From a phage: a DNA stretch of 64,000 bases. The notes beneath the pieces are model-generated. The model was not told the DNA's origin and did no database searches. It saw only the letters and a program-made list of their open reading frames with translations. The stretch is taken from sequence record PV357172.2; one strand, 5' to 3'. This document shows, one piece after another, positions 11,475-59,746 of this stretch. The translations under genes were made by a program, and so were the position numbers. Position 1 is the first letter of the stretch; each line of letters opens with the position of its first letter.

Positions 11475-11933
11475 TTAATTTGGATAGAGTTCGGACTTAA
11501 AATTAGCCCTAACTTTTTTAGCCTCTTCTATAGTATTGCACTGCTGGTACTTACGAATAGATCCTTTCTGCATTAGCACACAATATTTATCGCCCCTCAT
11601 GTAGATATTAGGCTCGCCCAACTTATTGTCTTTACGCACATTAATATTGTGCATTTGCTTAGATCTATTGGAGTCTTCTAAATTCTCTATAAAGTTGCAA
11701 TCTTTAATCCTGTTTTTGTGGTCTATCTCTTCTGGTATGTACCCCTTATGATATAAGAATACCAGCTGATGCTCTCCCCAGTGCCTACGCTTAAACCCTA
11801 TTCTTATATACCCTTTATGTTTACCCCCGGCAAACTTACCTACTAGACTCTTCTGTCTTGTTTTCTTCCATTTAAGATGGCCTGTTTCAGGATCATACTC
11901 AAAAGCCTCTCTAACCTCTTCCTGTGTTATCAT
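11475..11933 (-). CDS. HNH homing endonuclease
   Basis: HNH motif region HKGYIPEEIDHKNRIKDCNFIENL; paralog of five other HNH genes in window. Confidence 0.7.
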   Translation of the reverse strand: MITQEEVREAFEYDPETGHLKWKKTRQKSLVGKFAGGKHKGYIRIGFKRRHWGEHQLVFLYHKGYIPEEIDHKNRIKDCNFIENLEDSNRSKQMHNINVRKDNKLGEPNIYMRGDKYCVLMQKGSIRKYQQCNTIEEAKKVRANFKSELYPN

Positions 11934-15470: not shown

Positions 15471-15923
15471 TTACTGGATTGATTCCCTACCGTATAATTG
15501 ACCTCTAAACATCTTGGCCATAGAACATGCAACCTCATAGTTATCATATGTTCCTTTAACTATACGTTTACGGTTAATAGTAAATACTACTTGCCAGTTC
15601 TTACTACCAGAAGGGTAAACATGCATTCCTTTCTTATACTTGATATTTCTTAGATTACCGGATACTGTCTGCTCTCTAAGATTTTCAATACGATCATCAC
15701 CTTTTACAGTATTCACATGATCTACTAAATCAGGTAAGTATCCGTGATGCATTAAGAAGATAGCTCTGTGTCGGAGCATAGTTCTACTCCCTAGAGAAAT
15801 ACGGTAATAACCATTTCCCGTTGAAACACAACATTCCTTGCCTGCATTTCTTCCTGTAGTTCTAAATAATTTTCCATCTTCATATCGGAAATTATCTAAA
15901 AGTTCCTGTTGTGTGAGCGACAT
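15471..15923 (-). CDS. HNH homing endonuclease
   Basis: HNH motif HHGYLPDLVDHVNTVKGDDRIENL; start set at ATG 15923 preceded by GGAGG. Confidence 0.7.
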   Translation of the reverse strand: MSLTQQELLDNFRYEDGKLFRTTGRNAGKECCVSTGNGYYRISLGSRTMLRHRAIFLMHHGYLPDLVDHVNTVKGDDRIENLREQTVSGNLRNIKYKKGMHVYPSGSKNWQVVFTINRKRIVKGTYDNYEVACSMAKMFRGQLYGRESIQ

Positions 15924-16062
15924 CTTTACCTCCAATACATATATTATTACATAATCCACCCAATTTGTCAATGACAATTTATTCATACTGTCAATTAACT
16001 GGAAAGATTATATAATAATCCGAGCCAAAATGACTCGGTAGTCAGAGTTCAGCTAATAAAAA

Positions 16063-25492: not shown

Positions 25493-25990
25493 ATGAAATT
25501 AACACAGAGTAGATTAAAAGAGCTAATCTCCTATGACCCTGAAACTGGCGAATTTACCTGGCTCCCAAGAAAAACTTTAGCAAAGCATTTATGGAATGCT
25601 AAAGCAGGAACCTACGATAAATTAGGGTATCTTCGTATAAAAGTTGAAGGAGTTCAATATTTAGCTCATCGCCTAGCCTTCTTGTATATGACTGGAGAAA
25701 TACCGGAAGGAAAAATCGACCATAAAGATACTAATCCGTCTAATTGTGCCTGGGATAATCTCCGTGAAGCCACGAGTTCTCAAAATTCTATGAACTCGTG
25801 TGCAAGATCGGATAACCAGCTTGGAATGAAAAATATTCGTGTAAAAGGCACTTCATTTCAGGTTAGGATAGGCAAAGACGGCAAATCTTATACAAAAACT
25901 TTTAAAACCCTAGAAGAAGCTATAGAATGGAGAGACACCAAACTACTAGAACTTCATGGGGACTTTGCAAACAACGGAGAAGCTAAATGA
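25493..25990 (+). CDS. HNH homing endonuclease (between nrdA and nrdB)
   Basis: HNH motif GEIPEGKIDHKDTNPSNCAWDNL; own promoter-like element upstream. Confidence 0.7.
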   Translation: MKLTQSRLKELISYDPETGEFTWLPRKTLAKHLWNAKAGTYDKLGYLRIKVEGVQYLAHRLAFLYMTGEIPEGKIDHKDTNPSNCAWDNLREATSSQNSMNSCARSDNQLGMKNIRVKGTSFQVRIGKDGKSYTKTFKTLEEAIEWRDTKLLELHGDFANNGEAK

Positions 25991-28516: not shown

Positions 28517-28595
28517 TTCAAATAAAATATTACTTGCTTGATGTCTAAATTTATAATATAATATTTCCTATATGTATATTATAGGGGATTTACTT

Positions 28596-29150
28596 ATGAT
28601 TATAAAAGAAGGATGGACAAAAGAGTCCGCACGAGCTAGATTTATATACAACCCTGATACAGGGGAGATTTTTAACAGAGTAAATAGCGGACGTGCTAGA
28701 AAAGGAGAATTAGCCGGGTATATTGATAAATCTACGGGGTATGTTAGACTAGTATTATCTGGTAAAAGGATTAAAGGACATCAGCTAGCCTTCTTATATA
28801 TGGAAGGCTATATACCTGATACCATAGACCATATTAATAGAATAAAATCAGATAATAAATGGACTAATCTAAGGGAATCATCGGCTCAAGAAAATGCTAG
28901 AAATATTAGGGCAAGAAGTAAATCGGGCTATTTAGGTGTTGGTTGGTATAAGCCAACCCAAAACTGGTGTGTTTATACTAAGGATAAAGATGGAGTCCAA
29001 GTTAACGGAGGCTACTTTGCATACAAAGAACTAGAGTTAGCAGTTCAAAAGGCTAATGAACTTCGCTTACAGTTACATGGAGAAAACGCTGTTATAGAAG
29101 CTTTTGATTCCACAAAACCACTTCCCACATTAGAGGATCTTAATAAATGA
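28596..29150 (+). CDS. HNH homing endonuclease (between thyA and RNase H)
   Basis: HNH motif EGYIPDTIDHINRIKSDNKWTNL; start at ATG 28596 after AGGGGA. Confidence 0.7.
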   Translation: MIIKEGWTKESARARFIYNPDTGEIFNRVNSGRARKGELAGYIDKSTGYVRLVLSGKRIKGHQLAFLYMEGYIPDTIDHINRIKSDNKWTNLRESSAQENARNIRARSKSGYLGVGWYKPTQNWCVYTKDKDGVQVNGGYFAYKELELAVQKANELRLQLHGENAVIEAFDSTKPLPTLEDLNK

Positions 29151-33252: not shown

Positions 33253-34074
33253 ATGGGTAAATTACAAAAACAAATACTACCACATATAGATTATATTCGA
33301 GAAATTATAGAGTATAATCCTTATACTGGTAAATTATTTTATAAGCCTAATAAATACAAGAATAAAACTTGGCACACCCTATATGCTGGGAGAGAAATAT
33401 GTAGTAAGAACTCTGATGGGTATATCAGAGTTAGTTTGCTCTTAGATAATAAACCCACAATTATTTATGGACACCGAATAGCGTGGTTGCTCCATTATGG
33501 TGAAGAGCCTCCTTATATGATCGACCATATAAATACCATACCGTGGGATAACAGAATTGTTAATCTAAGAGAGACAAATTTTAAGTTAAATAGGATTAAT
33601 ACTAATAAAACCGTAGGTGTAGAACTCCTCCCCGAGGGTTTTGTGTATAGCATTACATTAGGTGGAAAGTTTTTCGTATCTCCTGGCTTCACCACTTTCG
33701 AACAAGCTAAAGGGGAAAGAGAAAAACTAGTAAATGGTTTATGTAATGCAGAAATTGGGAAGCAGACCAATATTCTAATAGACGATGTTAGAGATCTACC
33801 TGAAATGTCCATTATTTGTCGTACAGTTATAGGTGCGCTGGAACTATCAGATATGTTTAGTTTTACTGGTTCCTACCTATTTATGGACTCAGATCTAGGA
33901 GACCCAGAAGTACAAGGAAAAGACTTATTAGATTATATACTCTTTTTAGGTCAAAGACCTTTGAAAGTAGTTCTAGTAACATCCAACCCTGTTGACGCAG
34001 AGTACATGAGAGGTACTCTTACGTCTTATGGTTATCGAGAAAATCCCAATAGGTTAGAATATGACCTATTTTAA
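33253..34074 (+). CDS. HNH endonuclease with C-terminal extension
   Basis: HNH motif YGHRIAWLLHYGEEPPYMIDHINTIPWDNRIVNL in N-terminal half. Confidence 0.65.
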   Translation: MGKLQKQILPHIDYIREIIEYNPYTGKLFYKPNKYKNKTWHTLYAGREICSKNSDGYIRVSLLLDNKPTIIYGHRIAWLLHYGEEPPYMIDHINTIPWDNRIVNLRETNFKLNRINTNKTVGVELLPEGFVYSITLGGKFFVSPGFTTFEQAKGEREKLVNGLCNAEIGKQTNILIDDVRDLPEMSIICRTVIGALELSDMFSFTGSYLFMDSDLGDPEVQGKDLLDYILFLGQRPLKVVLVTSNPVDAEYMRGTLTSYGYRENPNRLEYDLF

Positions 34075-51744: not shown

Positions 51745-52028
51745 AACCAGAGCCATCTCATGAGTTAAAGCAAGCTCATGTAGACTGGCCTAAAGGACTT
51801 CAGCCTTGTAGCTTTGATTTCAAATTCGAAAAGAAATTAGCTACAAATGGCGAAGATGGCGTAGTAGTTGTTGTACCATATAAAGATTGGAATGCAAAAG
51901 CAAAATGTGAGGAAGCAGTTTACTCTTACATTTCACGACTGACTGGTATGGTCTGCTTCTATCGTCAAGATTTACAAGAAAAACGTTGCTTAGTTTACTA
52001 TCCACCCATTACAAATAGGAAAGATTAA
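51675..52028 (+). CDS. putative o-spanin (outer-membrane lipoprotein)
   Basis: Signal peptide with lipobox ITGC (LLAAAITITGCAEE); overlaps 3' end of preceding gene in another frame. Confidence 0.5.
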   Translation: MFNWKLGILLAAAITITGCAEEIKPEPSHELKQAHVDWPKGLQPCSFDFKFEKKLATNGEDGVVVVVPYKDWNAKAKCEEAVYSYISRLTGMVCFYRQDLQEKRCLVYYPPITNRKD

Positions 52029-52699
52029 TGTCAGTATTAGTCGGTTTACATGGTGAAGCTGGTTCGGGAAAAGATACCGTTGCAAAATTAATTATCGATT
52101 GGTGTAATGACACGTATCCAACGTGTTTACCCCGTCGTTACAGTTTTGCTAAGCCCGTTTATGAACTTGCATCCGTAATCCTCGGTGTAACTCCAGAGTT
52201 TCTAGGAGAGCGCAGGGGAAAAGAGATTGATCAATGGTTTACGGTCACACAATCTCAATTGGAGCGAGCCAGAGATGTGTGGTTTAAGTACGGTATCGAT
52301 AAGTTTGAAGACTTCTCGTACGTTTGGCCTATTTTTGAGGAAAAATATCTTAATCCCCAACAACTTATCTCAGAGAGTAAAGAAGACGGACTTTATAGTT
52401 TATTTATTTCTCCGAGAAAAATGTTACAGCTCGTAGGAACAGAGCTAGGAAGGCAGCTGGTGCATGAACGCATTTGGCTCATAATTCTGGAGCAATCCAT
52501 CGCTAAAGACGACCCAGACGTCGCCGTAATAACAGATGTTAGATTCCCCAATGAAGGAAAGCTACTCAGAGAAACAAACCATTTAGATATGGATTCTTTG
52601 ATAGTAAATGTAGTACCGCTGAGCAGAAGTTTACTATTAAATCAGATCATCCATCTGAAAGTGGTATTCCTGCAAATATATTACTCACGAATTAGTTAA
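52028..52699 (+). CDS. deoxynucleoside monophosphate kinase-like P-loop kinase
   Basis: N-terminal P-loop GLHGEAGSGKDTVAKL. Confidence 0.55.
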   Translation: MSVLVGLHGEAGSGKDTVAKLIIDWCNDTYPTCLPRRYSFAKPVYELASVILGVTPEFLGERRGKEIDQWFTVTQSQLERARDVWFKYGIDKFEDFSYVWPIFEEKYLNPQQLISESKEDGLYSLFISPRKMLQLVGTELGRQLVHERIWLIILEQSIAKDDPDVAVITDVRFPNEGKLLRETNHLDMDSLIVNVVPLSRSLLLNQIIHLKVVFLQIYYSRIS

Positions 52700-52790
52700 T
52701 AAATTCGATGGTATCAATAACCTTAAACTAGAAGTTTATAACTTCTGTGACTTAGAGCTAGAACCACTAGTTGGATAATCAAGGATCGCT

Positions 52791-53390
52791 ATGACTAATA
52801 AAAAAGAAGAAAAGACTAACCTGTTTCACTCCATTCGCCAATCTAACGAGTATACCTTTTTCTTTGATGAAGAGTTAGGCCCGCCGGATGAATACCGTGA
52901 TTTATCAATGGTACTTATGCAGGCACATGAGGACGACGAAATTAATCTGATGATTAATGGCCCGGGTGGTTATGTTGATACTGCTGCACAGTTATCTAAC
53001 TTAATTGCTAATTGCCGTGGAACAGTTATAGGACACCTGATTGGTCCTAGTGCTTCTGCTTACTGCACAATTTTCCTATCCTGTCATGGATGGGTAGTAC
53101 ATCCACATGCTACGCTAATGGGACACACGTTCTCTGGCGGATTCTGTGAGAAGGGTCAAGAAATCAAGAAAGCCTATGAATCTTACAACAAGTTCGTAGA
53201 AGATATGATGCTAGATGTCTACTATCCGTTCTTCTCAATAGACGAAATCGACGAGATGGTAAAAGACAACAAAAATATCTATCTAGATAGCAAAGAAATC
53301 CATAAGCGTATTGAAATCTTGGCAAAATATCGATCTGAGCAATATAATAAAGCCCAGTTACCTCAATCAGAGGAGCATAACGAAGAGTAA
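52791..53390 (+). CDS. ClpP-like (S14 family) serine peptidase
   Basis: ClpP-like core INGPGGYVDTA...IGPSASAYCTIF...HPHATLMGH. Confidence 0.45.
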   Translation: MTNKKEEKTNLFHSIRQSNEYTFFFDEELGPPDEYRDLSMVLMQAHEDDEINLMINGPGGYVDTAAQLSNLIANCRGTVIGHLIGPSASAYCTIFLSCHGWVVHPHATLMGHTFSGGFCEKGQEIKKAYESYNKFVEDMMLDVYYPFFSIDEIDEMVKDNKNIYLDSKEIHKRIEILAKYRSEQYNKAQLPQSEEHNEE

Positions 53391-53401
53391 GTAATTTTAA
53401 G

Positions 53402-53436
53402 CCAGGGTTTAACGACCCTGGCTTTTCTTTTATCTA
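53402..53436 (+). terminator. rho-independent terminator
   Basis: Hairpin GCCAGGGTT-TAACGA-CCCTGGC followed by TTTTCTTTT. Confidence 0.6.
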
Positions 53437-53546
53437 AAATTCTTCTTGACAACGACAAAATTTTATGCTCCAGAAGTGATCTTTAAAAACACATTGTAAT
53501 TTTCCTCCAAAATTAGTATAATGGTACTGGTTAGAGGAGGTTACAA

Positions 53547-54203
53547 TTGGAAAAGTTCTTACAATTATTAACGGTACTGCTCCAAGAAGCGAAAGATCCA
53601 GCATCGCTTCTTAAACGTCTGCTAACTATCTTAGTTGCTGTCATTATTTTCTTATTTGTTAGTAATACTAGCGAGGTGATGTCATTCTTAAAGACTTTCT
53701 CCACGTCTGCGGTTCTACAGGATGTTCAAACTCAAAGGATAGATAACTTTCCTAATGTAGCTAGAGAAAAGAGCATGGTACTTTTTTCTCAAACGGGTGC
53801 GGATGCTGTTTTTGTCGTCAAGTATAAACCAGATGCTATTAATGATTATTCTAACATTATTGCATGGGAAAGCAATGCGCAATTAGATAGGGCTGACTTG
53901 GCCGATAAAGCGGTAAATAAAACGTCTGAGCTATATAGACGTCACTTGGAGGGCTTTAACTACGCATCGGATTTAAGTGTAAAAGTAAATAAATACATGG
54001 GGTTAAATATACCTGCGTTTAAGAACGTTACTTTTAATTACATATACACTTGTCCGTATTTCAATCTAAACAATATCTATGCTGGATATATTGGTATTGC
54101 TTGGAAAGATAACCCTGTAGATGCAGCCGATTCTGAGAAATTTAAGGAATATTTAACAAAGCTCTGTTCACCACAACAGAGATCTTTAGGTAGATCAATA
54201 TGA
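53547..54203 (+). CDS. putative T-type holin (single N-terminal TM, large periplasmic domain)
   Basis: 218 aa, one TM (LLTILVAVIIFLFV); TTG start after GAGGAGGT; immediately precedes endolysin with ATGA overlap. Confidence 0.5.
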   Translation: MEKFLQLLTVLLQEAKDPASLLKRLLTILVAVIIFLFVSNTSEVMSFLKTFSTSAVLQDVQTQRIDNFPNVAREKSMVLFSQTGADAVFVVKYKPDAINDYSNIIAWESNAQLDRADLADKAVNKTSELYRRHLEGFNYASDLSVKVNKYMGLNIPAFKNVTFNYIYTCPYFNLNNIYAGYIGIAWKDNPVDAADSEKFKEYLTKLCSPQQRSLGRSI

Positions 54204-54613
54204 GTTTTAAATTTGGTAAAAATAGCGAAAAACAATTAGCTACCGTTAAGCCAGAGCTACAAAAAGTAGCTCGTAGAGCTTTAGAATTATCTCCATATGA
54301 TTTCACGATCGTACAAGGTATTCGTACAGTAGCACAAAGTGCCCAGAATATTGCTAATGGTACTTCATTTTTAAAAGATCCTAGTAAAAGTAAGCATATT
54401 ACTGGGGATGCCCTTGATTTTGCTCCATACATTAATGGCAAAATTGATTGGAATGACTTAGAAGCATTTTGGGCAGTTAAAAAGGCTTTTGAACAGGCCG
54501 GTAAAGAACTAGGCGTTAAACTTCGTTTTGGTGCTGATTGGAATGCTTCGGGAGATTATCACGATGAAATAAAACGTGGTACCTATGATGGCGGTCATGT
54601 CGAACTAGTTTAA
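54200..54613 (+). CDS. endolysin, zinc L-alanyl-D-glutamate peptidase (M15 family)
   Basis: 137 aa; metal-binding motifs SKHITGDALDF and DGGHVE. Confidence 0.7.
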   Translation: MSFKFGKNSEKQLATVKPELQKVARRALELSPYDFTIVQGIRTVAQSAQNIANGTSFLKDPSKSKHITGDALDFAPYINGKIDWNDLEAFWAVKKAFEQAGKELGVKLRFGADWNASGDYHDEIKRGTYDGGHVELV

Positions 54614-54623
54614 TTAATAACTG

Positions 54624-54648
54624 AGGCGGGAATACTCCCGCCTTTTTA
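54624..54648 (+). terminator. rho-independent terminator
   Basis: Hairpin GGCGGGA-ATAC-TCCCGCC followed by TTTTT. Confidence 0.65.
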
Positions 54649-54690
54649 GGCAAAGGGGGCTTTAATAATTTTTAAAGATAGGAGAAAGCC

Positions 54691-55107
54691 ATGTTTGCAG
54701 AACTATTCACTATGATGCTGCTAGGTATCTGGAAAATAAGTCTAGTAGTATTCGTTTTAATGATAGTCTTTACTATCCTTGCATTAACTACCCGAAATAG
54801 CTTATTAATAAAGGTTATTCACGGACTAGAGTATATAATTATGGGTTCATTCGGCGTTTGTAAATGCAATTGCCATAGAGATACGAAATATTGTTGGTTA
54901 TGGATGGAACTAGAGAATCCTATATCCATAGCTTTGGCTGTTTCATTCGGTATGATTCTTATGGCCCTTACTCTAGCATTAATACCTTTGATGTTAGCTG
55001 GGGGAGTTACAGCGTATTTCACCCTTTTCTCCCCGATACTTATGTACTCAATTTACCCAATAACTATGTATCTAGTTAGGAAAAGATTTATACATGCAGT
55101 AGATTAA
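54691..55107 (+). CDS. multi-pass membrane protein (138 aa)
   Basis: ATG after AGGAGAAAGCC; three to four hydrophobic segments. Confidence 0.45.
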   Translation: MFAELFTMMLLGIWKISLVVFVLMIVFTILALTTRNSLLIKVIHGLEYIIMGSFGVCKCNCHRDTKYCWLWMELENPISIALAVSFGMILMALTLALIPLMLAGGVTAYFTLFSPILMYSIYPITMYLVRKRFIHAVD

Positions 55108-55182
55108 GATAAAAAAGTAGTTGACTTTTAGCCCTAGTTATTATATAATATATACATAAATTAGTTAAGAGAGGTATATATT

Positions 55183-55614
55183 ATGTCTGATCGTTTCTAT
55201 ACTCAAATGGCGGAACATTTTCGTATACCACATTACGAGCTAAACATTGCACTCCGTGATCATGACTCTCCTGAGTACAAAAAGCTCGAAAAGAAAGCGG
55301 AAAAATCTATTGATACAAAGGTAGGTGCATCTATGTCTAAGGGCAAAAAGTTAACTCGTCTTGATCTTAATAAAATTTTAACTGAACTTTTGGGTACTGA
55401 TATTGAAGGTGCTAAATTACCGCTTCTTGTACTAGAGACTATGATTAAAAAGGTCAAAAATAAAGAGTATAAAAAGGTAGAAGTCCCAGAAGGCAGATTG
55501 AAAGCTCCTTATCAGGAGGCATTAACCGAGTGTTTGGGTGTAAATCTTGATCTAAGCACCGCAACCGTAAAAACTATGAGAAACTTCTTAGAGGCCATTA
55601 ATAACTATGAGTAA
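55183..55614 (+). CDS. hypothetical protein (143 aa)
   Basis: TTGACT/TATAAT promoter upstream; GAGAGG RBS. Confidence 0.5.
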   Translation: MSDRFYTQMAEHFRIPHYELNIALRDHDSPEYKKLEKKAEKSIDTKVGASMSKGKKLTRLDLNKILTELLGTDIEGAKLPLLVLETMIKKVKNKEYKKVEVPEGRLKAPYQEALTECLGVNLDLSTATVKTMRNFLEAINNYE

Positions 55615-55897
55615 ATTAGTATATCTATTAAAAGGTTCCACCTGTAACCCGTGTAAACTTTTCGAGCCAGTATTTGATAAAGTAGTCAATGAATATAATT
55701 TGGAAGTCCATAAAGAGACTGATAATACAGAATTAATGCAGAAATTTGGCGTACGCCAAGTTCCTGTAGTAGTTCTGGCGGATCGCTTACCTAATGGTCG
55801 AGTAGAAGCTAATCATATTTTGATTGGACGTCAGCTTCGTAAAGAAACTATGCACGAAGCTATTAAAAATTTCCTGGATGATAATCCAGAGGATTAA
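55607..55897 (+). CDS. thioredoxin/glutaredoxin-like redoxin
   Basis: CxxC active-site-like CNPC near N-terminus; 96 aa. Confidence 0.5.
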   Translation: MSKLVYLLKGSTCNPCKLFEPVFDKVVNEYNLEVHKETDNTELMQKFGVRQVPVVVLADRLPNGRVEANHILIGRQLRKETMHEAIKNFLDDNPED

Positions 55898-55928
55898 TAA
55901 ACCAAGCCTGATCTTAGCGGATCAGGCT
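55894..55928 (+). terminator. rho-independent terminator
   Basis: Hairpin AAGCCTGATC-TTAGCG-GATCAGGCTT followed by TTATTTT. Confidence 0.6.
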
Positions 55929-55994
55929 TTTATTTTACTTGCTTTCAGCTAAAAATTTTGGTATAATACTTATATAAATTGATAGGAGGATTAA

Positions 55995-56240
55995 ATGTTA
56001 GCGGAACAAGCAAAACGTTTAGCTAGGATAAATAGAGCCGCGTCCCTCAAGAGCCGAAAGAAAACGTATAGATGGGTTAAGCGGAGGATAGTATCTTCTG
56101 TCGAGATTGGAGGTTCTTTTGTACAGCTTAATCGTGACGAAATTAGTTATGAAGCTATAAAAGCCCTCAATAAAGAGGGTTATACTCTCAAACTATCAAA
56201 TAATTATGGTACAACTATTTTAAATGTTATTTGGGAATAA
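55995..56240 (+). CDS. hypothetical protein (81 aa)
   Basis: Promoter module upstream; GGAGGATTAA RBS. Confidence 0.45.
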   Translation: MLAEQAKRLARINRAASLKSRKKTYRWVKRRIVSSVEIGGSFVQLNRDEISYEAIKALNKEGYTLKLSNNYGTTILNVIWE

Positions 56241-56242
56241 TT

Positions 56243-57106
56243 ATGAAAAAAGAATTTAATGTGCATAAAACACTAGTAGTACCTGATGATGTTAACTTAT
56301 TCTTTGTTGGTGATATTCATGGATGCAACGATTTACTAGAAGATGCACTACAATTAGCTGGCTATAACGGCAAGAAAGATTGCGTTGTATGCGTGGGAGA
56401 TTTAATTGATCGAGGCACGCAGAACCTACAAGTTTTAGCCAAATTCCTGTATAATCCACGCTTTATCAGTGTACGTGGTAATCATGACCAATTTATGATT
56501 GTGGGAGATTGGGCTAACTGGATGTATAACGGTGGTATGTGGGCCATGAATGAACTAGATGCAGATACCATTAAAAATATTGCTGAAGACATGGCTGAAA
56601 AAATGCCAGTATTTCTGACTGTATTGCATCGTGGTAAAAAGTATGGTGTTGTTCATGGTGGTGTACCTTTTACGTACAAAGAATGCGGTAACGAAGTAGA
56701 AACCCCAGTATGGGATAGCCTTATTGCACAAGTAGAAGCAGCTAAGGAAGACCCACATGACCATCCTGGATACCATGTTGAGCCATACTTATGGGATCGA
56801 GATGTAATCCAAGAAATAGGTTTTCACTTAGCTAAAAATGGTGAAGAACACTCACATTTCCAGCGTTATGCAGGGTTTAAAGAGAAATACATGGTAGAAG
56901 TACCTCCGGTTAATGGAGTAGACTTTGTATTTCATGGGCATACCGGAGTACCTTACCCGATTTTATACCAGAACCGTGTTTACCTAGATACTGGCGGTGT
57001 TTTCAACGGGCAGTTGACGGTTGCGCAGGTTAACGATGAAACTGGCAAAATCACCACATTTACCACAGACAAAAATGATAGCTGCGGTGTACAGAGGATC
57101 CTTTAA
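56243..57106 (+). CDS. Ser/Thr protein phosphatase (calcineurin-like metallophosphoesterase)
   Basis: Motifs GDIHG, GDLIDRG, GNHD; ATG at 56243. Confidence 0.7.
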   Translation: MKKEFNVHKTLVVPDDVNLFFVGDIHGCNDLLEDALQLAGYNGKKDCVVCVGDLIDRGTQNLQVLAKFLYNPRFISVRGNHDQFMIVGDWANWMYNGGMWAMNELDADTIKNIAEDMAEKMPVFLTVLHRGKKYGVVHGGVPFTYKECGNEVETPVWDSLIAQVEAAKEDPHDHPGYHVEPYLWDRDVIQEIGFHLAKNGEEHSHFQRYAGFKEKYMVEVPPVNGVDFVFHGHTGVPYPILYQNRVYLDTGGVFNGQLTVAQVNDETGKITTFTTDKNDSCGVQRIL

Positions 57107-57393
57107 TGAATGATAGAATGAAAGAAGTACAAGAAGAATTACGAGCAATGCGTATTGATGCCCTTCGTTGGAGGGCATTAGTTAATGCTTTCGTCAAAGG
57201 AGATACCGGAGTAATATATTCTGGAATAGCAGTCAATTTTTGTTTTAATTCTCCTGCTGAAATAGAGATAGAAACAAGGCTTACTACCTACCTTAATGAG
57301 GTAGACCTTAAGGAAGGAGAGACTCCCGAGGAGTTTAAAACTAGAGTATTAACTACCTGGGTTGATAATTTAATACAAAAAAGGAGTAAGTGA
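57106..57393 (+). CDS. hypothetical protein (95 aa)
   Basis: ORF track; start and stop overlaps with neighbours. Confidence 0.4.
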   Translation: MNDRMKEVQEELRAMRIDALRWRALVNAFVKGDTGVIYSGIAVNFCFNSPAEIEIETRLTTYLNEVDLKEGETPEEFKTRVLTTWVDNLIQKRSK

Positions 57394-57983
57394 TGAAGGT
57401 TAAATTCTGGTCAGACTTGCACTTAGACCACCCTGGAGCACTACGTTTCCGTCCGTGGTTTAAGAACATGAAAGAGCACGATGAGTATATTCTAGATACT
57501 TTGTCCAAGCATATTGGTAAACGAACAAAACTTATTTTGCTAGGAGATATTGCAGTAGGTCGTGAAGGTCTGGCCAAATTAAAGTCGGTTATCCACAATG
57601 TCCCTAATCAACTCATTATGGGTAATCATGATGCGGAGCGTCAAGGACTGAGTATTAGGGACTTAGCGGAAGTTTATGATGATATTCAGGCTCTAGGTAA
57701 ACAGACTGGAGGTGGCAAAAAGTTTTGGCTATCTCACTGCCCTTTGCATCCCAATGAACTTCGTGGCAAACTAAATATTCATGGACACGTACATACTACT
57801 TCTCTACGTGATCCACGTTATATCAATGTTTCATTTGAAATGAGTAAAACTCCAATTCCTCTAGAGGATATTGTGTCTGGTAAGTTTACTAGCTATGATA
57901 AAGTAGTTAATTGTACTACCGGCGAGGTATTACAAATAGGGGAAGACGTAGCTGCTGTATTACGTGGGGATATAAATGTCTGA
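57393..57983 (+). CDS. calcineurin-like metallophosphoesterase (second copy)
   Basis: Motifs DLHLDHP, GDIAVG, GNHD, GHVH; ATG at 57393 after AAGGAG. Confidence 0.6.
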   Translation: MKVKFWSDLHLDHPGALRFRPWFKNMKEHDEYILDTLSKHIGKRTKLILLGDIAVGREGLAKLKSVIHNVPNQLIMGNHDAERQGLSIRDLAEVYDDIQALGKQTGGGKKFWLSHCPLHPNELRGKLNIHGHVHTTSLRDPRYINVSFEMSKTPIPLEDIVSGKFTSYDKVVNCTTGEVLQIGEDVAAVLRGDINV

Positions 57984-58150
57984 GTATATAGCTGAGGCTA
58001 TTATTAAACGAATCATACAAGCGATAGCAATACTTATAATCATTTGTATTGCTATTGGTACAGGATTAGGCATTTTAATTAAAAGTTTTATTTGCTAAAA
58101 TGCTTAAGTTTCTGTATAATTACTTTATAAATTGATGAGAAGGAATCAAA

Positions 58151-58582
58151 ATGAACAAAGTTGATAAAGCTCTAGTTTTCGCAGCAGCAGATAAGTTTGA
58201 ACAAGTTAAGGCAACTTTCCGAACCTTGTTCCAGTCTTACGTTCAGGATAAGTCTAATCCTATCTCTGAACGTTTGATGGTCTGGGAATGTCATGCTTGC
58301 AATGCCCTATTAATTGCGGATTATCGTAGCGATATAGATAAAGATCTGTGCGAAATTCTTATCGCTGAGGAGGCAGAACGTTATCAGTTAATCTCTTTCC
58401 AAGATTTGGCGGAGCATATCATTCCTGATGATCTTTGGGATAAATACTACGGTGATCCTGAGGACGAAGGATTGACTCCAGAAGCCTGTATTGAGCTAAT
58501 CTGCAAAGATCATCCTGAAATTGCAGAGAAATTTGAAAAAGTTTTTGCTTCTGAGTTCTCCGGCGTTGTTAACGATTGGTAA
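58151..58582 (+). CDS. hypothetical acidic protein (143 aa)
   Basis: Promoter module and GAGAAGGAATC leader upstream. Confidence 0.5.
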   Translation: MNKVDKALVFAAADKFEQVKATFRTLFQSYVQDKSNPISERLMVWECHACNALLIADYRSDIDKDLCEILIAEEAERYQLISFQDLAEHIIPDDLWDKYYGDPEDEGLTPEACIELICKDHPEIAEKFEKVFASEFSGVVNDW

Positions 58583-58660
58583 GTAATTAAAAAATTCAGT
58601 TGCTTTAAGCCTTAAAATTCTGTATAATAAGTTCATAAATTAATGAGAGAGGAAATTCTA

Positions 58661-58939
58661 ATGGAAAACATGACTAAAGACTTCGACGCCTCTAACCTTA
58701 CCAAGACTGAAATGGCCAATGTATTAGCAATTCTCCTCGACATGCAAGGATTTGAGGGGCAACTGATGAAAATGTCTATTCCGGCGATGAAGAAGATGTA
58801 TGATTCTCTTAACAAGAACGCTATGGCCTTTAACTTAGCAAAACAAGAGGCACGCTTTGCTAAGGAGCATCAAGCAGTGGCAGAACGCCGAGCAGCTAGC
58901 TTTGAGCGTGAAGTCAAGCAATTAAAGAAAAAATGCTAA
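58661..58939 (+). CDS. hypothetical protein (about 92 aa)
   Basis: ATG at 58661 after GAGAGAGGAAATTCT. Confidence 0.45.
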   Translation: MENMTKDFDASNLTKTEMANVLAILLDMQGFEGQLMKMSIPAMKKMYDSLNKNAMAFNLAKQEARFAKEHQAVAERRAASFEREVKQLKKKC

Positions 58940-59466
58940 CACAAGAAAGATTAAAAGAGTTATTTGAATACCGCCCGGAAACGGGCGAGTTTATAAGGAA
59001 AGTCAGTAGAGGACGAGGTAAAGCAGGTAGTATTGCTGGTAGTCCTGATAGGGATGGTTATATATTTATTGGGATAAATAGAAAAAGATATGCAGCCCAT
59101 AGGTTAGCCTTTTTGTACATGGAGGGGTATATTCCAAATCTAGTACACCACTTAAATAATATAAGAAAAGATAATAGATGGTGTAATTTAAAAGATTGTA
59201 CGTCCCAAGAAAATAATCGTAGCAAAATCGCTCAATCTAATTCGGGGTACTTAGGAGTTACCTGGAAAAAGATCGACAACAATGGAGAGTCCAGGCCAGA
59301 AGCGCCGAAAGCATTACAGTACACGGAGGCTATTTTAGGTATCTAGATTTAGAGTTGGCAGTTCAAAGAGCTAATGAACTACGTTTAGAACTACATGGGC
59401 CTAATGCTGTTATAGAAACTTTTGATCATACAAAACCCTTACCTACTTTAGAGGACTTAAATAAAT
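58933..59466 (+). pseudogene. HNH homing endonuclease, frameshifted
   Basis: Residues 1-113 match the HNH paralogs in one frame; the conserved C-terminus GGYF..LELAVQ.ANELRL.LHG.NAVIE.F..TKPLPTLEDLNK continues in a different frame from about 59290 to 59463. Confidence 0.55.
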
Positions 59467-59746
59467 GATTACAGAAATTCTCATTGGATTGCTAGTTCTT
59501 ACTACACTAGTAGCGATTGGCGGAGTTATTGGGATTGTGAATGCACGAAAAAGCATGGAAAATATGCTTATTACTAATGATGGACTACACCACCGTTTGC
59601 TAGAGCAAGAGCAGGATATTGAATTAGCACAAAGACGCTCGGATATTCTTAAGGAAAAATTAAATAATATAGAAGCAATAGTTGGGAATAATAAATTACC
59701 TGCTAAAGTAATGCGTACCCAGATAATCACGGAGATTAAAAAATGA
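59465..59746 (+). CDS. small membrane protein (93 aa)
   Basis: N-terminal TM; coiled-coil C-terminus. Confidence 0.4.
   Translation: MITEILIGLLVLTTLVAIGGVIGIVNARKSMENMLITNDGLHHRLLEQEQDIELAQRRSDILKEKLNNIEAIVGNNKLPAKVMRTQIITEIKK

What the first reader, a model, noticed from the sequence alone, without database searches (positions are those of the whole stretch)
58933..59466. HNH endonuclease paralog disrupted by a frameshift
The N-terminal 113 residues align with the HNH paralogs at 28596 and 25493. The conserved C-terminal tail is present but in a different reading frame from about 59290, consistent with a single-nucleotide indel near AACAATGGAGAG. This is a decaying homing endonuclease, a programmed frameshift, or a sequencing error.
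Basis: seen in the sequence. Interest (0 to 1): 0.5.

Follow-up and report, generated by a model that had tools for sequence, protein, structure and literature searches.

The report
Frameshifted phage homing endonuclease gene
One of six HNH homing-endonuclease genes in this T5-like phage genome has lost a single A from a run of six, which cuts the nuclease domain off from its DNA-binding domain; this is an ordinary, recurrent kind of damage, or possibly a sequencing miscall, and not a programmed frameshift.

Summary
ORF 58933-59346 (137 aa) carries an HNH_3 domain. The conserved C-terminal 65 residues continue in the -1 frame from 59271 to the stop at 59468.

The break is not at AACAATGGAGAG (59278-59289). 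It is one missing A in the run at 59266-59270, which is A5 here. Of 22 orthologues at the same locus in other T5-like phages, 19 are in frame: 16 have A6 and 3 have AAAAAGG. ECOP18 independently has A5 and BB1 has A7.

The intact 178-aa protein is an HNH plus AP2-like free-standing homing endonuclease. It sits between two small early genes, and "empty" sites without it exist in other phages.

A programmed frameshift is not supported. The in-frame form is the norm, lesions of both signs and a nonsense mutation occur, and there is no stimulatory RNA structure.

Real slippage mutation (about 0.5) and homopolymer miscall (about 0.4) cannot be separated without reads. The window also has two unique single-base deletions in the conserved dnk gene, which argues for miscalls.

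Two minor curiosities remain. All six known lesions in this gene family fall in codons 104-116. The A5 allele also creates G_AAA_AAG, where -1 slippage would regenerate the exact wild-type protein.

The parts
58933..59346 (+). Broken HEG, first reading frame: a 137-aa ORF. It consists of residues 1-113 of the endonuclease, 24 out-of-frame residues and a TAG stop.
   Evidence: Matches PHROG 99 'HNH endonuclease' at 6e-58 when the frame is restored.
59089..59220 (+). HNH_3 catalytic domain (residues 53-96). It includes H73, N85 and N94, which are invariant among the paralogues and homologues.
   Evidence: Pfam PF13392, 43 bits, E=3.6e-11. Invariant columns.
59266..59270 (+). Poly-A run, A5 here. 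This is the site of the 1-nt deletion. Intact orthologues have A6 (or AAAAAGG), ECOP18 has A5 and BB1 has A7.
59265..59271 (+). G_AAA_AAG in the zero frame (W111-K112-K113). It is a potential -1 slippery site created by the deletion. A -1 slip here would yield the exact wild-type sequence ...WKKDRQQW...
   Evidence: Sequence. Frames. The shiftiness of A_AAG and C_AAA_AAA in E. coli is taken from PMC5009743 and PMC1851650. Not tested here.
59271..59468 (+). Continuation of the endonuclease in the -1 frame (frame 3): residues 114-178 plus the TGA stop. It has no internal stop and only one synonymous change unique to the window.
59245..59405 (+). AP2-like DNA-binding domain (residues about 105-158: three beta-strands and a long helix). 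The frameshift splits it after strand 1.
   Evidence: AF2 model of the 99%-identical P0001 has pLDDT 88.7 with strands 109-112, 117-123, 129-135 and helix 137-158. Foldseek top hits are AP2 domains 7wq5, 1gcc (TM 0.75 normalised to the target) and 7et5. Pfam AP2 is only sub-threshold, E=0.032.
59355..59468 (+). 37-aa TTG ORF, the mechanical remnant of the C-terminal frame. The same ORF is annotated as a second 'homing endonuclease' CDS in ECOP18. It is unlikely to be a gene.
58643..58939 (+). Upstream flanking gene (98 aa, DUF7179-type). Its stop overlaps the HEG start (ATGCTAA).
   Evidence: In empty-site phages it is followed directly by the downstream gene.
59465..59746 (+). Downstream flanking gene (93 aa, membrane protein). 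Its ATG overlaps the HEG stop (ATGA).

Best explanation
This is a free-standing homing endonuclease gene with an N-terminal HNH_3 nuclease and a C-terminal AP2-like DNA-binding domain. It belongs to the T5 'P-TflX / F-TflVIII-like' group and sits in the spacer between two small early genes of a T5-like (Tequintavirus) phage.

In this genome, replication slippage has removed one A from the gene's longest homopolymer (A6 to A5 at 59266-59270). Translation therefore leaves the frame after K113, at the end of the first strand of the AP2-like domain, and stops 24 codons later. The main product is a 137-aa protein with an intact nuclease domain but no DNA-binding domain, so site-specific cleavage and homing should be lost or much reduced.

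The event is very recent, because the downstream frame is still intact. It is one of several independent knock-outs of this selfish gene in related phages, which is the normal degeneration phase of a homing endonuclease.

Shown here: the lesion, its position, the domain architecture, the recurrence in other genomes, and the presence/absence polymorphism.

Inferred: that the deletion is in the phage and not only in the assembly; loss of activity; and a possible minor full-length product from -1 slippage on G_AAA_AAG.
For: Lesion mapped to the A-run by alignment with orthologues. Of 22 orthologues, 16 have A6 and 3 have AAAAAGG in frame.

ECOP18 has A5. It differs from the window by 22 substitutions, and its nearest relative carries A6, so the two A5 events are independent. 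BB1 has A7 in a SPAdes contig of 304x coverage. Within 37-40 kb of ECOP18 and BB1, the HEG is the only annotated gene that is broken.

Other lesions at this locus: slur09 has a nonsense codon at position 104; PMBT31 has GGGG to GGGGG; and a sister allele has CCC to CC in three read sets from two accession series (SRR and DRR).

Intact alleles are under purifying selection, with dN/dS 0.05 for residues 1-103 and 0.14 for residues 104-178.

Empty sites with the flanking genes directly adjacent occur in DT571/2, GEC_vB_N5, Es2 and Kenya-K15/16.

Domains: HNH_3, PHROG 99, AP2-like fold.

The literature describes phage HNH+AP2 HEGs as often frameshifted, including an HNH|AP2 split in ICP1 gp115/gp116 (PMC10448857).
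Against: No reads are available, so the deletion may exist only in the assembly.

The window also carries two other single-base homopolymer deletions (CCC to CC at about 52616-52618 and AAAA to AAA at about 52674-52677). They are 59 nt apart in the conserved dNMP kinase gene dnk. Neither deletion is present in any of the 25 listed records, which are the closest of 439 records with a match. This looks like local miscalling, and it lies only 6.6 kb from the HEG.

The window's exact truncated protein is not in a collection of 15 billion proteins. IMG/VR and metagenome scans found only A6.

The downstream frame shows no decay at all, which also fits an artefact.
Confidence: 0.5

Rival explanations
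1. Sequencing or assembly artefact. The phage really has A6 and an intact 178-aa endonuclease, and the assembly under-called one base in the homopolymer.
For: All three frame-breaking differences between the window's coding regions and five relatives are single-base deletions in homopolymers, and all lie within 6.7 kb (52616-59270) of the 64-kb window.

The two in dnk hit a region that is at least 98% conserved, and none of the 25 listed records, the closest of 439 matching records, carries either deletion. Two independent real frameshifts 59 nt apart in a conserved gene are unlikely.

The HEG downstream frame is pristine, with only one synonymous unique change. A6 is the longest run in the gene.
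Against: The same tract is altered in two other independently sequenced genomes, one at 304x coverage, whose neighbouring genes are otherwise clean. About 9% of genomes carrying an HEG at this locus have a genuine-looking lesion in the same 13 codons, including a nonsense mutation and a frameshift seen in three read sets.

The dnk deletions are in short runs (C3, A4), whereas none of the other 36 matches to AAAAAA (runs of six or more A or T) in the window broke a reading frame against the five relatives compared. That is not the usual pattern of length-dependent homopolymer error.
Confidence: 0.38
2. Programmed -1 ribosomal frameshift (or transcriptional slippage). Under this reading, G_AAA_AAG is a recoding signal that makes both an HNH-only protein and a full-length HNH-AP2 protein in a set ratio.
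For: The zero-frame heptamer G_AAA_AAG (59265-59271) ends in A_AAG, the minimal -1 shift site in E. coli, and C_AAA_AAA alone gave 25-60% frameshifting in an E. coli expression vector (PMC5009743 and PMC1851650). A -1 slip would give exactly the wild-type sequence. An SD-like AGGAG lies at 59253-59257, 7 nt upstream.
Against: Recoding sites are conserved, and this one is not. 19 of 22 orthologues are simply in frame, BB1 needs the opposite shift, and sister alleles are broken by other lesions.

There is no downstream stimulatory structure (z 0.28 and 0.16). The AGGAG encodes the conserved GYLGV motif and is present in in-frame alleles too. An A5 run is too short for appreciable RNA-polymerase slippage (general knowledge).
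Confidence: 0.04
3. Selected truncation or down-tuning. Under this reading, phages benefit from losing the DNA-binding domain while keeping the HNH module, or from a leaky hypomorph, so lesions accumulate specifically at the domain junction.
For: All six independent lesions in three allelic lineages fall in codons 104-116 of 178: the window, ECOP18, BB1, slur09, PMBT31 and the Logan allele.

Homopolymer content predicts only about 7-12% of indels there for the two sister alleles, and about 7% for a random nonsense codon. ICP1 gp115/gp116 is split at the same domain boundary (PMC10448857).
Against: Three of the six events are at the single longest homopolymer, which explains them mutationally: it carries 30-77% of the run-weighted indel propensity. 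The sample is small, the codon interval was chosen after the fact, and one lesion was found with an N-terminal protein query, which biases the result.

0 of 80 family members in IMG/VR are split, so there is no general drive towards truncation. No function is known for an HNH-only product.
Confidence: 0.08

Closest known systems
T5-group free-standing HNH endonucleases (annotated P-TflX / F-TflVIII / 'hegJ'; PHROG 99)
   Same: Same architecture and length (176-178 aa) and the same phage group. Orthologues at the identical locus are 95-99% identical in nucleotide sequence and are annotated as homing endonucleases. In ECOP18 the identical A5 split is already deposited as two 'homing endonuclease' CDS.
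   Different: This copy is frame-broken. No biochemical data exist for this particular orthologue, and the 'nicking' label in some records is the annotators' wording, not tested here.
HNH + AP2 homing endonucleases of phages, cyanobacteria and protists ('IPA-HNH' HEGs of ICP1; PMC10448857)
   Same: N-terminal HNH and C-terminal AP2 DNA-binding domain, variable presence between related phages, and frequent frameshifts. ICP1 gp115/gp116 is an HNH ORF followed by an AP2 ORF, which the authors interpret as one frameshifted HEG.
   Different: The ICP1 proteins did not match Pfam HNH_3 directly, whereas this one does. They are from a different phage family, and no sequence comparison with the ICP1 proteins was made here.
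dnaX / IS-element type -1 frameshift sites (A_AAA_AAG) and 'compensatory' frameshifting at indels
   Same: The heptamer ends in A_AAG and consists of Lys codons read by the single E. coli tRNA-Lys. A slip would compensate for the indel (PMC5009743).
   Different: The first base is G, not A. There is no conserved stimulator, the site is not conserved among orthologues, and it arises only as a by-product of the deletion.

Membership tests
HNH (His-Me finger) endonuclease, Pfam HNH_3 | Significant match to the PF13392 profile above the gathering threshold | tested here: met
   43.0 bits against a cut-off of 24.8, E=3.6e-11, residues 53-96 covering profile positions 1-46 of 46
HNH (His-Me finger) endonuclease, Pfam HNH_3 | Conserved catalytic/metal residues of the beta-beta-alpha motif (His general base and two Asn) | tested here: met
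   H73, N85 and N94 are invariant across 4 window paralogues/orthologues and 18 homologues. Their roles are assigned by analogy, not by experiment.
HNH + AP2 homing endonuclease | C-terminal AP2-type DNA-binding domain (three-stranded sheet packed on a helix) | tested here: met
   AF2 model with pLDDT 88.7 shows strands 109-112, 117-123, 129-135 and helix 137-158. Foldseek top hits are AP2 domains 7wq5, 1gcc (probability 1.00, TM 0.75 normalised to the target) and 7et5. The sequence-only Pfam AP2 match is sub-threshold (15 bits against 33.3), so the support is structural and the E-values are modest (0.005-0.03).
HNH + AP2 homing endonuclease | Both domains in one uninterrupted reading frame | tested here: not met
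   In the window the two parts are in different frames. They are in one frame in 19 of 22 orthologues, one of which (slur09) carries a nonsense codon, and in 80 of 80 IMG/VR relatives.
Free-standing homing endonuclease gene (mobile selfish element) | Presence/absence polymorphism at a fixed site between conserved flanking genes | tested here: met
   The concatenated flanks match as one uninterrupted piece of 897-927 nt in DT571/2, GEC_vB_N5, Es2 and Kenya-K15/16. In DT571/2 and GEC_vB_N5 the HEG replaces a spacer of about 22 nt.
Free-standing homing endonuclease gene (mobile selfish element) | Site-specific cleavage or nicking of the HEG-less allele, and gene conversion in co-infection | not testable with these tools
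   Requires purified protein and phage crosses
Programmed -1 ribosomal frameshift site | Slippery heptamer X_XXY_YYZ in the zero frame | tested here: inconclusive
   G_AAA_AAG at 59265-59271. The A-site part A_AAG is canonical for E. coli, but the P-site part would have to re-pair with GAA (sequence; PMC5009743).
Programmed -1 ribosomal frameshift site | Conservation of the out-of-frame arrangement among orthologues | tested here: not met
   Only 2 of 23 sequences (the window and ECOP18) have it. 19 are in frame, BB1 is shifted the other way.
Programmed -1 ribosomal frameshift site | Downstream stimulatory RNA structure | tested here: not met
   MFE -12.3 and -14.5 kcal/mol, z-scores 0.28 and 0.16 against shuffles

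The most novel reading that the evidence does not exclude
The A-run at the HNH/AP2 junction could act as a slippage-prone dosage switch for a selfish nuclease. A6 would give the full enzyme. A5 would give mostly an HNH-only protein plus a small amount of exact wild-type enzyme through -1 ribosomal slippage on the newly created G_AAA_AAG. The clustering of all six known lesions in codons 104-116 would then reflect selection for down-tuned or domain-truncated forms and not random decay.
Probability: 0.08. Interest if true: 0.5.

Novelty: already known. Interest (0 to 1): 0.2.

Why it matters
It matters little beyond annotation. The two ORFs at 58933-59346 and 59355-59468 should be annotated as one disrupted homing-endonuclease gene and not as two genes. 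The window's assembly deserves a check, because dnk is broken as well.

If the lesion is real, it adds one more data point to the known invasion, fixation and decay cycle of phage homing endonucleases. It also identifies a six-base A run as the weak point of this gene.

The only feature with wider interest is that independent lesions cluster at the nuclease/DNA-binding junction, and that the A5 allele could be leaky through -1 slippage. Both are inexpensive to test.

Tried and rejected
- Exact look-up of the window's 137-aa ORF, the restored 178-aa protein and the truncated dnk product found none of them in the collection. This gave no independent confirmation of the lesion.
- Exact-pattern scans allowing A4-A8 found 5 hits in IMG/VR and 2 in metagenome contigs, all A6.
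- A sequence search of the PDB found nothing meaningful.
- Pfam AP2 on the C-terminal part is only sub-threshold. The paralogue gave a weak T4_Y13H hit that I disregard.
- RNA folding downstream of and around the A-run is no better than shuffled sequence. I therefore rejected a stimulatory element.
- A family-wide census of 80 IMG/VR loci, using separate HMMs for the HNH and AP2 parts, found none split and none with a premature stop. Frameshifting is therefore not a family trait.
- I considered the 37-aa TTG ORF (59355-59468) as a separate gene and rejected it. It is just the tail of the broken frame and lacks two of the three AP2 strands.
- I considered the SD-like AGGAG upstream as a frameshift stimulator and rejected it. 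It encodes the conserved GYLGV motif and is present in in-frame alleles.
- I could not identify the source genome. The best relatives are only about 93-96% identical.

Full report
**What is there.** The window is part of a T5-like phage genome (Tequintavirus, Demerecviridae). Its best relatives are about 93-96% identical, and none is the same genome.

At 58933 an ATG that overlaps the stop of the upstream gene opens a 137-aa ORF ending at 59346. It carries a full Pfam HNH_3 domain at residues 53-96 (43 bits, cut-off 24.8). It aligns with the intact paralogues at 28596-29150 (47% over 116 aa, E=1e-37) and at 25493-25990 (41% over 106 aa, E=6e-23).

The third frame is open from the A-run to TGA at 59466-59468. 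It encodes a tail that is 68% identical over 63 aa to the C-terminus of the paralogue at 28596 (E=3e-31).

**Where the frame breaks.** Alignment with orthologues at the same locus shows a single difference responsible for the shift: the run GG-AAAAA-G at 59266-59270 is A5 here and A6 in NR01 and NBEco001, whose gene is an uninterrupted 537 nt / 178 aa.

Joining frame 1 up to K113 (AAG, 59269-59271) with frame 3 from GAT (59271-59273) gives a 178-aa protein that is 99% identical to NR01's. It matches PHROG 99 'HNH endonuclease' over residues 1-168 (6e-58).

**What the gene is.**
- An AlphaFold model of the 99%-identical protein P0001 (pLDDT 88.7) shows an N-terminal domain (residues 1-96), a lower-confidence linker, then three strands (109-112, 117-123, 129-135) packed on a long helix (137-158).
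- The best Foldseek matches in the PDB are plant AP2/ERF DNA-binding domains: 7wq5, 1gcc with TM 0.75 normalised to the target, and 7et5. The Pfam AP2 match by sequence is only sub-threshold.
- HNH plus AP2 is a described class of homing endonucleases in phages (PMC10448857).
- The gene is a free-standing mobile element. In DT571/2, GEC_vB_N5, Es2 and Kenya-K15/16 the two flanking genes are adjacent, separated in DT571/2 and GEC_vB_N5 by a spacer of about 22 nt, exactly where the HEG sits here.
- Intact alleles are under purifying selection in both halves, with dN/dS 0.05 and 0.14.
- The window contains six genes with this HNH module. The other five are intact.
- The frameshift falls at the end of the first AP2 strand, so the 137-aa product keeps the nuclease domain and loses the DNA-binding domain.

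**How common the lesion is.** I examined 22 orthologues that are at least 95% identical in nucleotide sequence.
- 16 have A6. One of these, slur09, carries a TCG to TAG nonsense codon at position 104.
- 3 have the synonymous in-frame AAAAAGG.
- ECOP18 has A5, giving the same split as here, and it is deposited as two CDS.
- BB1 has A7.

ECOP18 differs from the window by 22 substitutions, and the nearest relatives of both carry A6. The two A5 events are therefore independent. BB1 is a SPAdes contig at 304x coverage. Within 37-40 kb of ECOP18 and BB1 the HEG is the only annotated gene that is frame-broken.

Two sister alleles at the same locus are also broken nearby:
- PMBT31 has GGGG to GGGGG at codon 108/109, which is its only difference from bombadil.
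- A GSP044-like allele has CCC to CC at codon 115/116. It is found in three read sets from two accession series (SRR and DRR).

IMG/VR and metagenome scans found only A6. None of 80 broader family members in IMG/VR is split.

**Programmed frameshift.** This is not supported.
- The in-frame arrangement is the rule.
- Lesions of both signs and a nonsense codon occur, so no single recoding mechanism could rescue them.
- RNA downstream of and around the run folds no better than shuffled sequence (z 0.28 and 0.16).

One point is still worth noting. The deletion creates G_AAA_AAG in the zero frame. A_AAG is the minimal -1 shift site in E. coli, and C_AAA_AAA alone gave 25-60% frameshifting in an expression vector (PMC5009743 and PMC1851650). 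A slip here would regenerate the exact wild-type sequence, so the A5 allele may be leaky and not null. That is inference only.

**Real mutation or miscall.** This cannot be settled without reads.

Points in favour of a real mutation:
- A6 is the longest run in the gene and carries 30-77% of its run-weighted indel propensity.
- The tract has changed independently in other genomes.
- About 9% of genomes with an HEG at this locus carry a lesion.

Points in favour of an artefact:
- A frameshift scan of the window against five relatives found only one other broken gene, the conserved dNMP kinase dnk (52028-52775). It carries two single-base deletions 59 nt apart, CCC to CC and AAAA to AAA.
- Neither deletion is present in any of the 25 listed records, which are the closest of 439 records with a match to that segment.
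- Two real frameshifts so close together in a conserved gene are improbable. All three deletions lie within 6.7 kb, which suggests a stretch of poor sequence.
- The HEG's downstream frame shows no decay, with one synonymous unique change. This fits either a very recent event or an artefact.

I put a real mutation at about 0.5, a miscall at about 0.4, and the remainder on recoding or selected truncation.

**An unexplained detail.** All six independent lesions (the window, ECOP18, BB1, slur09, PMBT31 and the Logan allele) lie in codons 104-116 of 178, at the linker and first strand of the AP2-like domain.

The A6 hotspot accounts for three of them. For the other three, the expected chance of falling in that interval is roughly 7-12% each. 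ICP1 gp115/gp116 is split at the same domain boundary.

The sample is small, the interval was chosen after the fact, and one case was found with an N-terminal protein query. I therefore record this as a lead and not as a finding.

**Verdict.** This is an ordinary disrupted homing-endonuclease gene in a T5-like phage. It is correctly spotted, with the indel site corrected to the poly-A run at 59266-59270. The kind of event is already documented, including an identical split deposited for phage ECOP18. Interest is low.

Noticed in passing
window 52028-52775 (deletions at about 52616-52618 and about 52674-52677): The conserved dNMP kinase gene dnk (250 aa in relatives) is broken by two single-base deletions 59 nt apart (CCC to CC and AAAA to AAA). 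Neither is present in any of the 25 listed records, the closest of 439 records matching this segment. This suggests local sequencing error, or a dnk-defective isolate.
   Followed up: partly
codons 104-116 of the HEG (window 59242-59280) and orthologous positions in L002, L003, L007, L033, L035-L037: All six independent inactivating lesions known for the HEG at this locus fall within 13 codons at the HNH/AP2 junction. They comprise three A-run indels, a G-run insertion, a C-run deletion and a nonsense codon. Homopolymer content explains only part of this.
   Followed up: partly
whole window: The pattern AAAAAA (runs of six or more A or T) is strongly depleted: 36 matches observed against 131 expected from dinucleotide-preserving shuffles, and every one of the 100 shuffles had at least 36. 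This is consistent with selection against slippage-prone tracts, and it makes the A6 in the intact HEG one of few such tracts.
   Followed up: no
window 11475-11933 (-), 15471-15986 (-), 25493-25990 (+), 28572-29150 (+), 33253-34074 (+): There are five further intact genes with the same N-terminal HNH module. Two are wedged between nucleotide-metabolism genes (nrdA|nrdB and thy|rnh). The gene at 33253 has a different, longer C-terminal part (273 aa).
   Followed up: partly
L039 (DT571/2) 480-503; L040 (GEC_vB_N5) 507-530; window 58933 and 59468 junctions: HEG-less alleles have a spacer of about 22 nt with its own ribosome-binding site (GGGAG) between the two flanking genes. In HEG-bearing phages the spacer is replaced, and the HEG overlaps both neighbours (ATGCTAA upstream and ATGA downstream).
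   Followed up: partly
window 61387 and 61421: There are two single-base insertions 34 nt apart relative to up to three of the relatives compared, in the stretch upstream of a small ORF. One of them turns TAGAGG into TAGGAGG, a stronger Shine-Dalgarno-like sequence.
   Followed up: no
L002 (ECOP18) 1423-1536: GenBank record MT080103 annotates the 37-aa remnant ORF as a separate 'homing endonuclease' CDS. BB1 and slur09 annotate only the truncated N-terminal ORF. These public annotations should probably be pseudogenes.
   Followed up: yes
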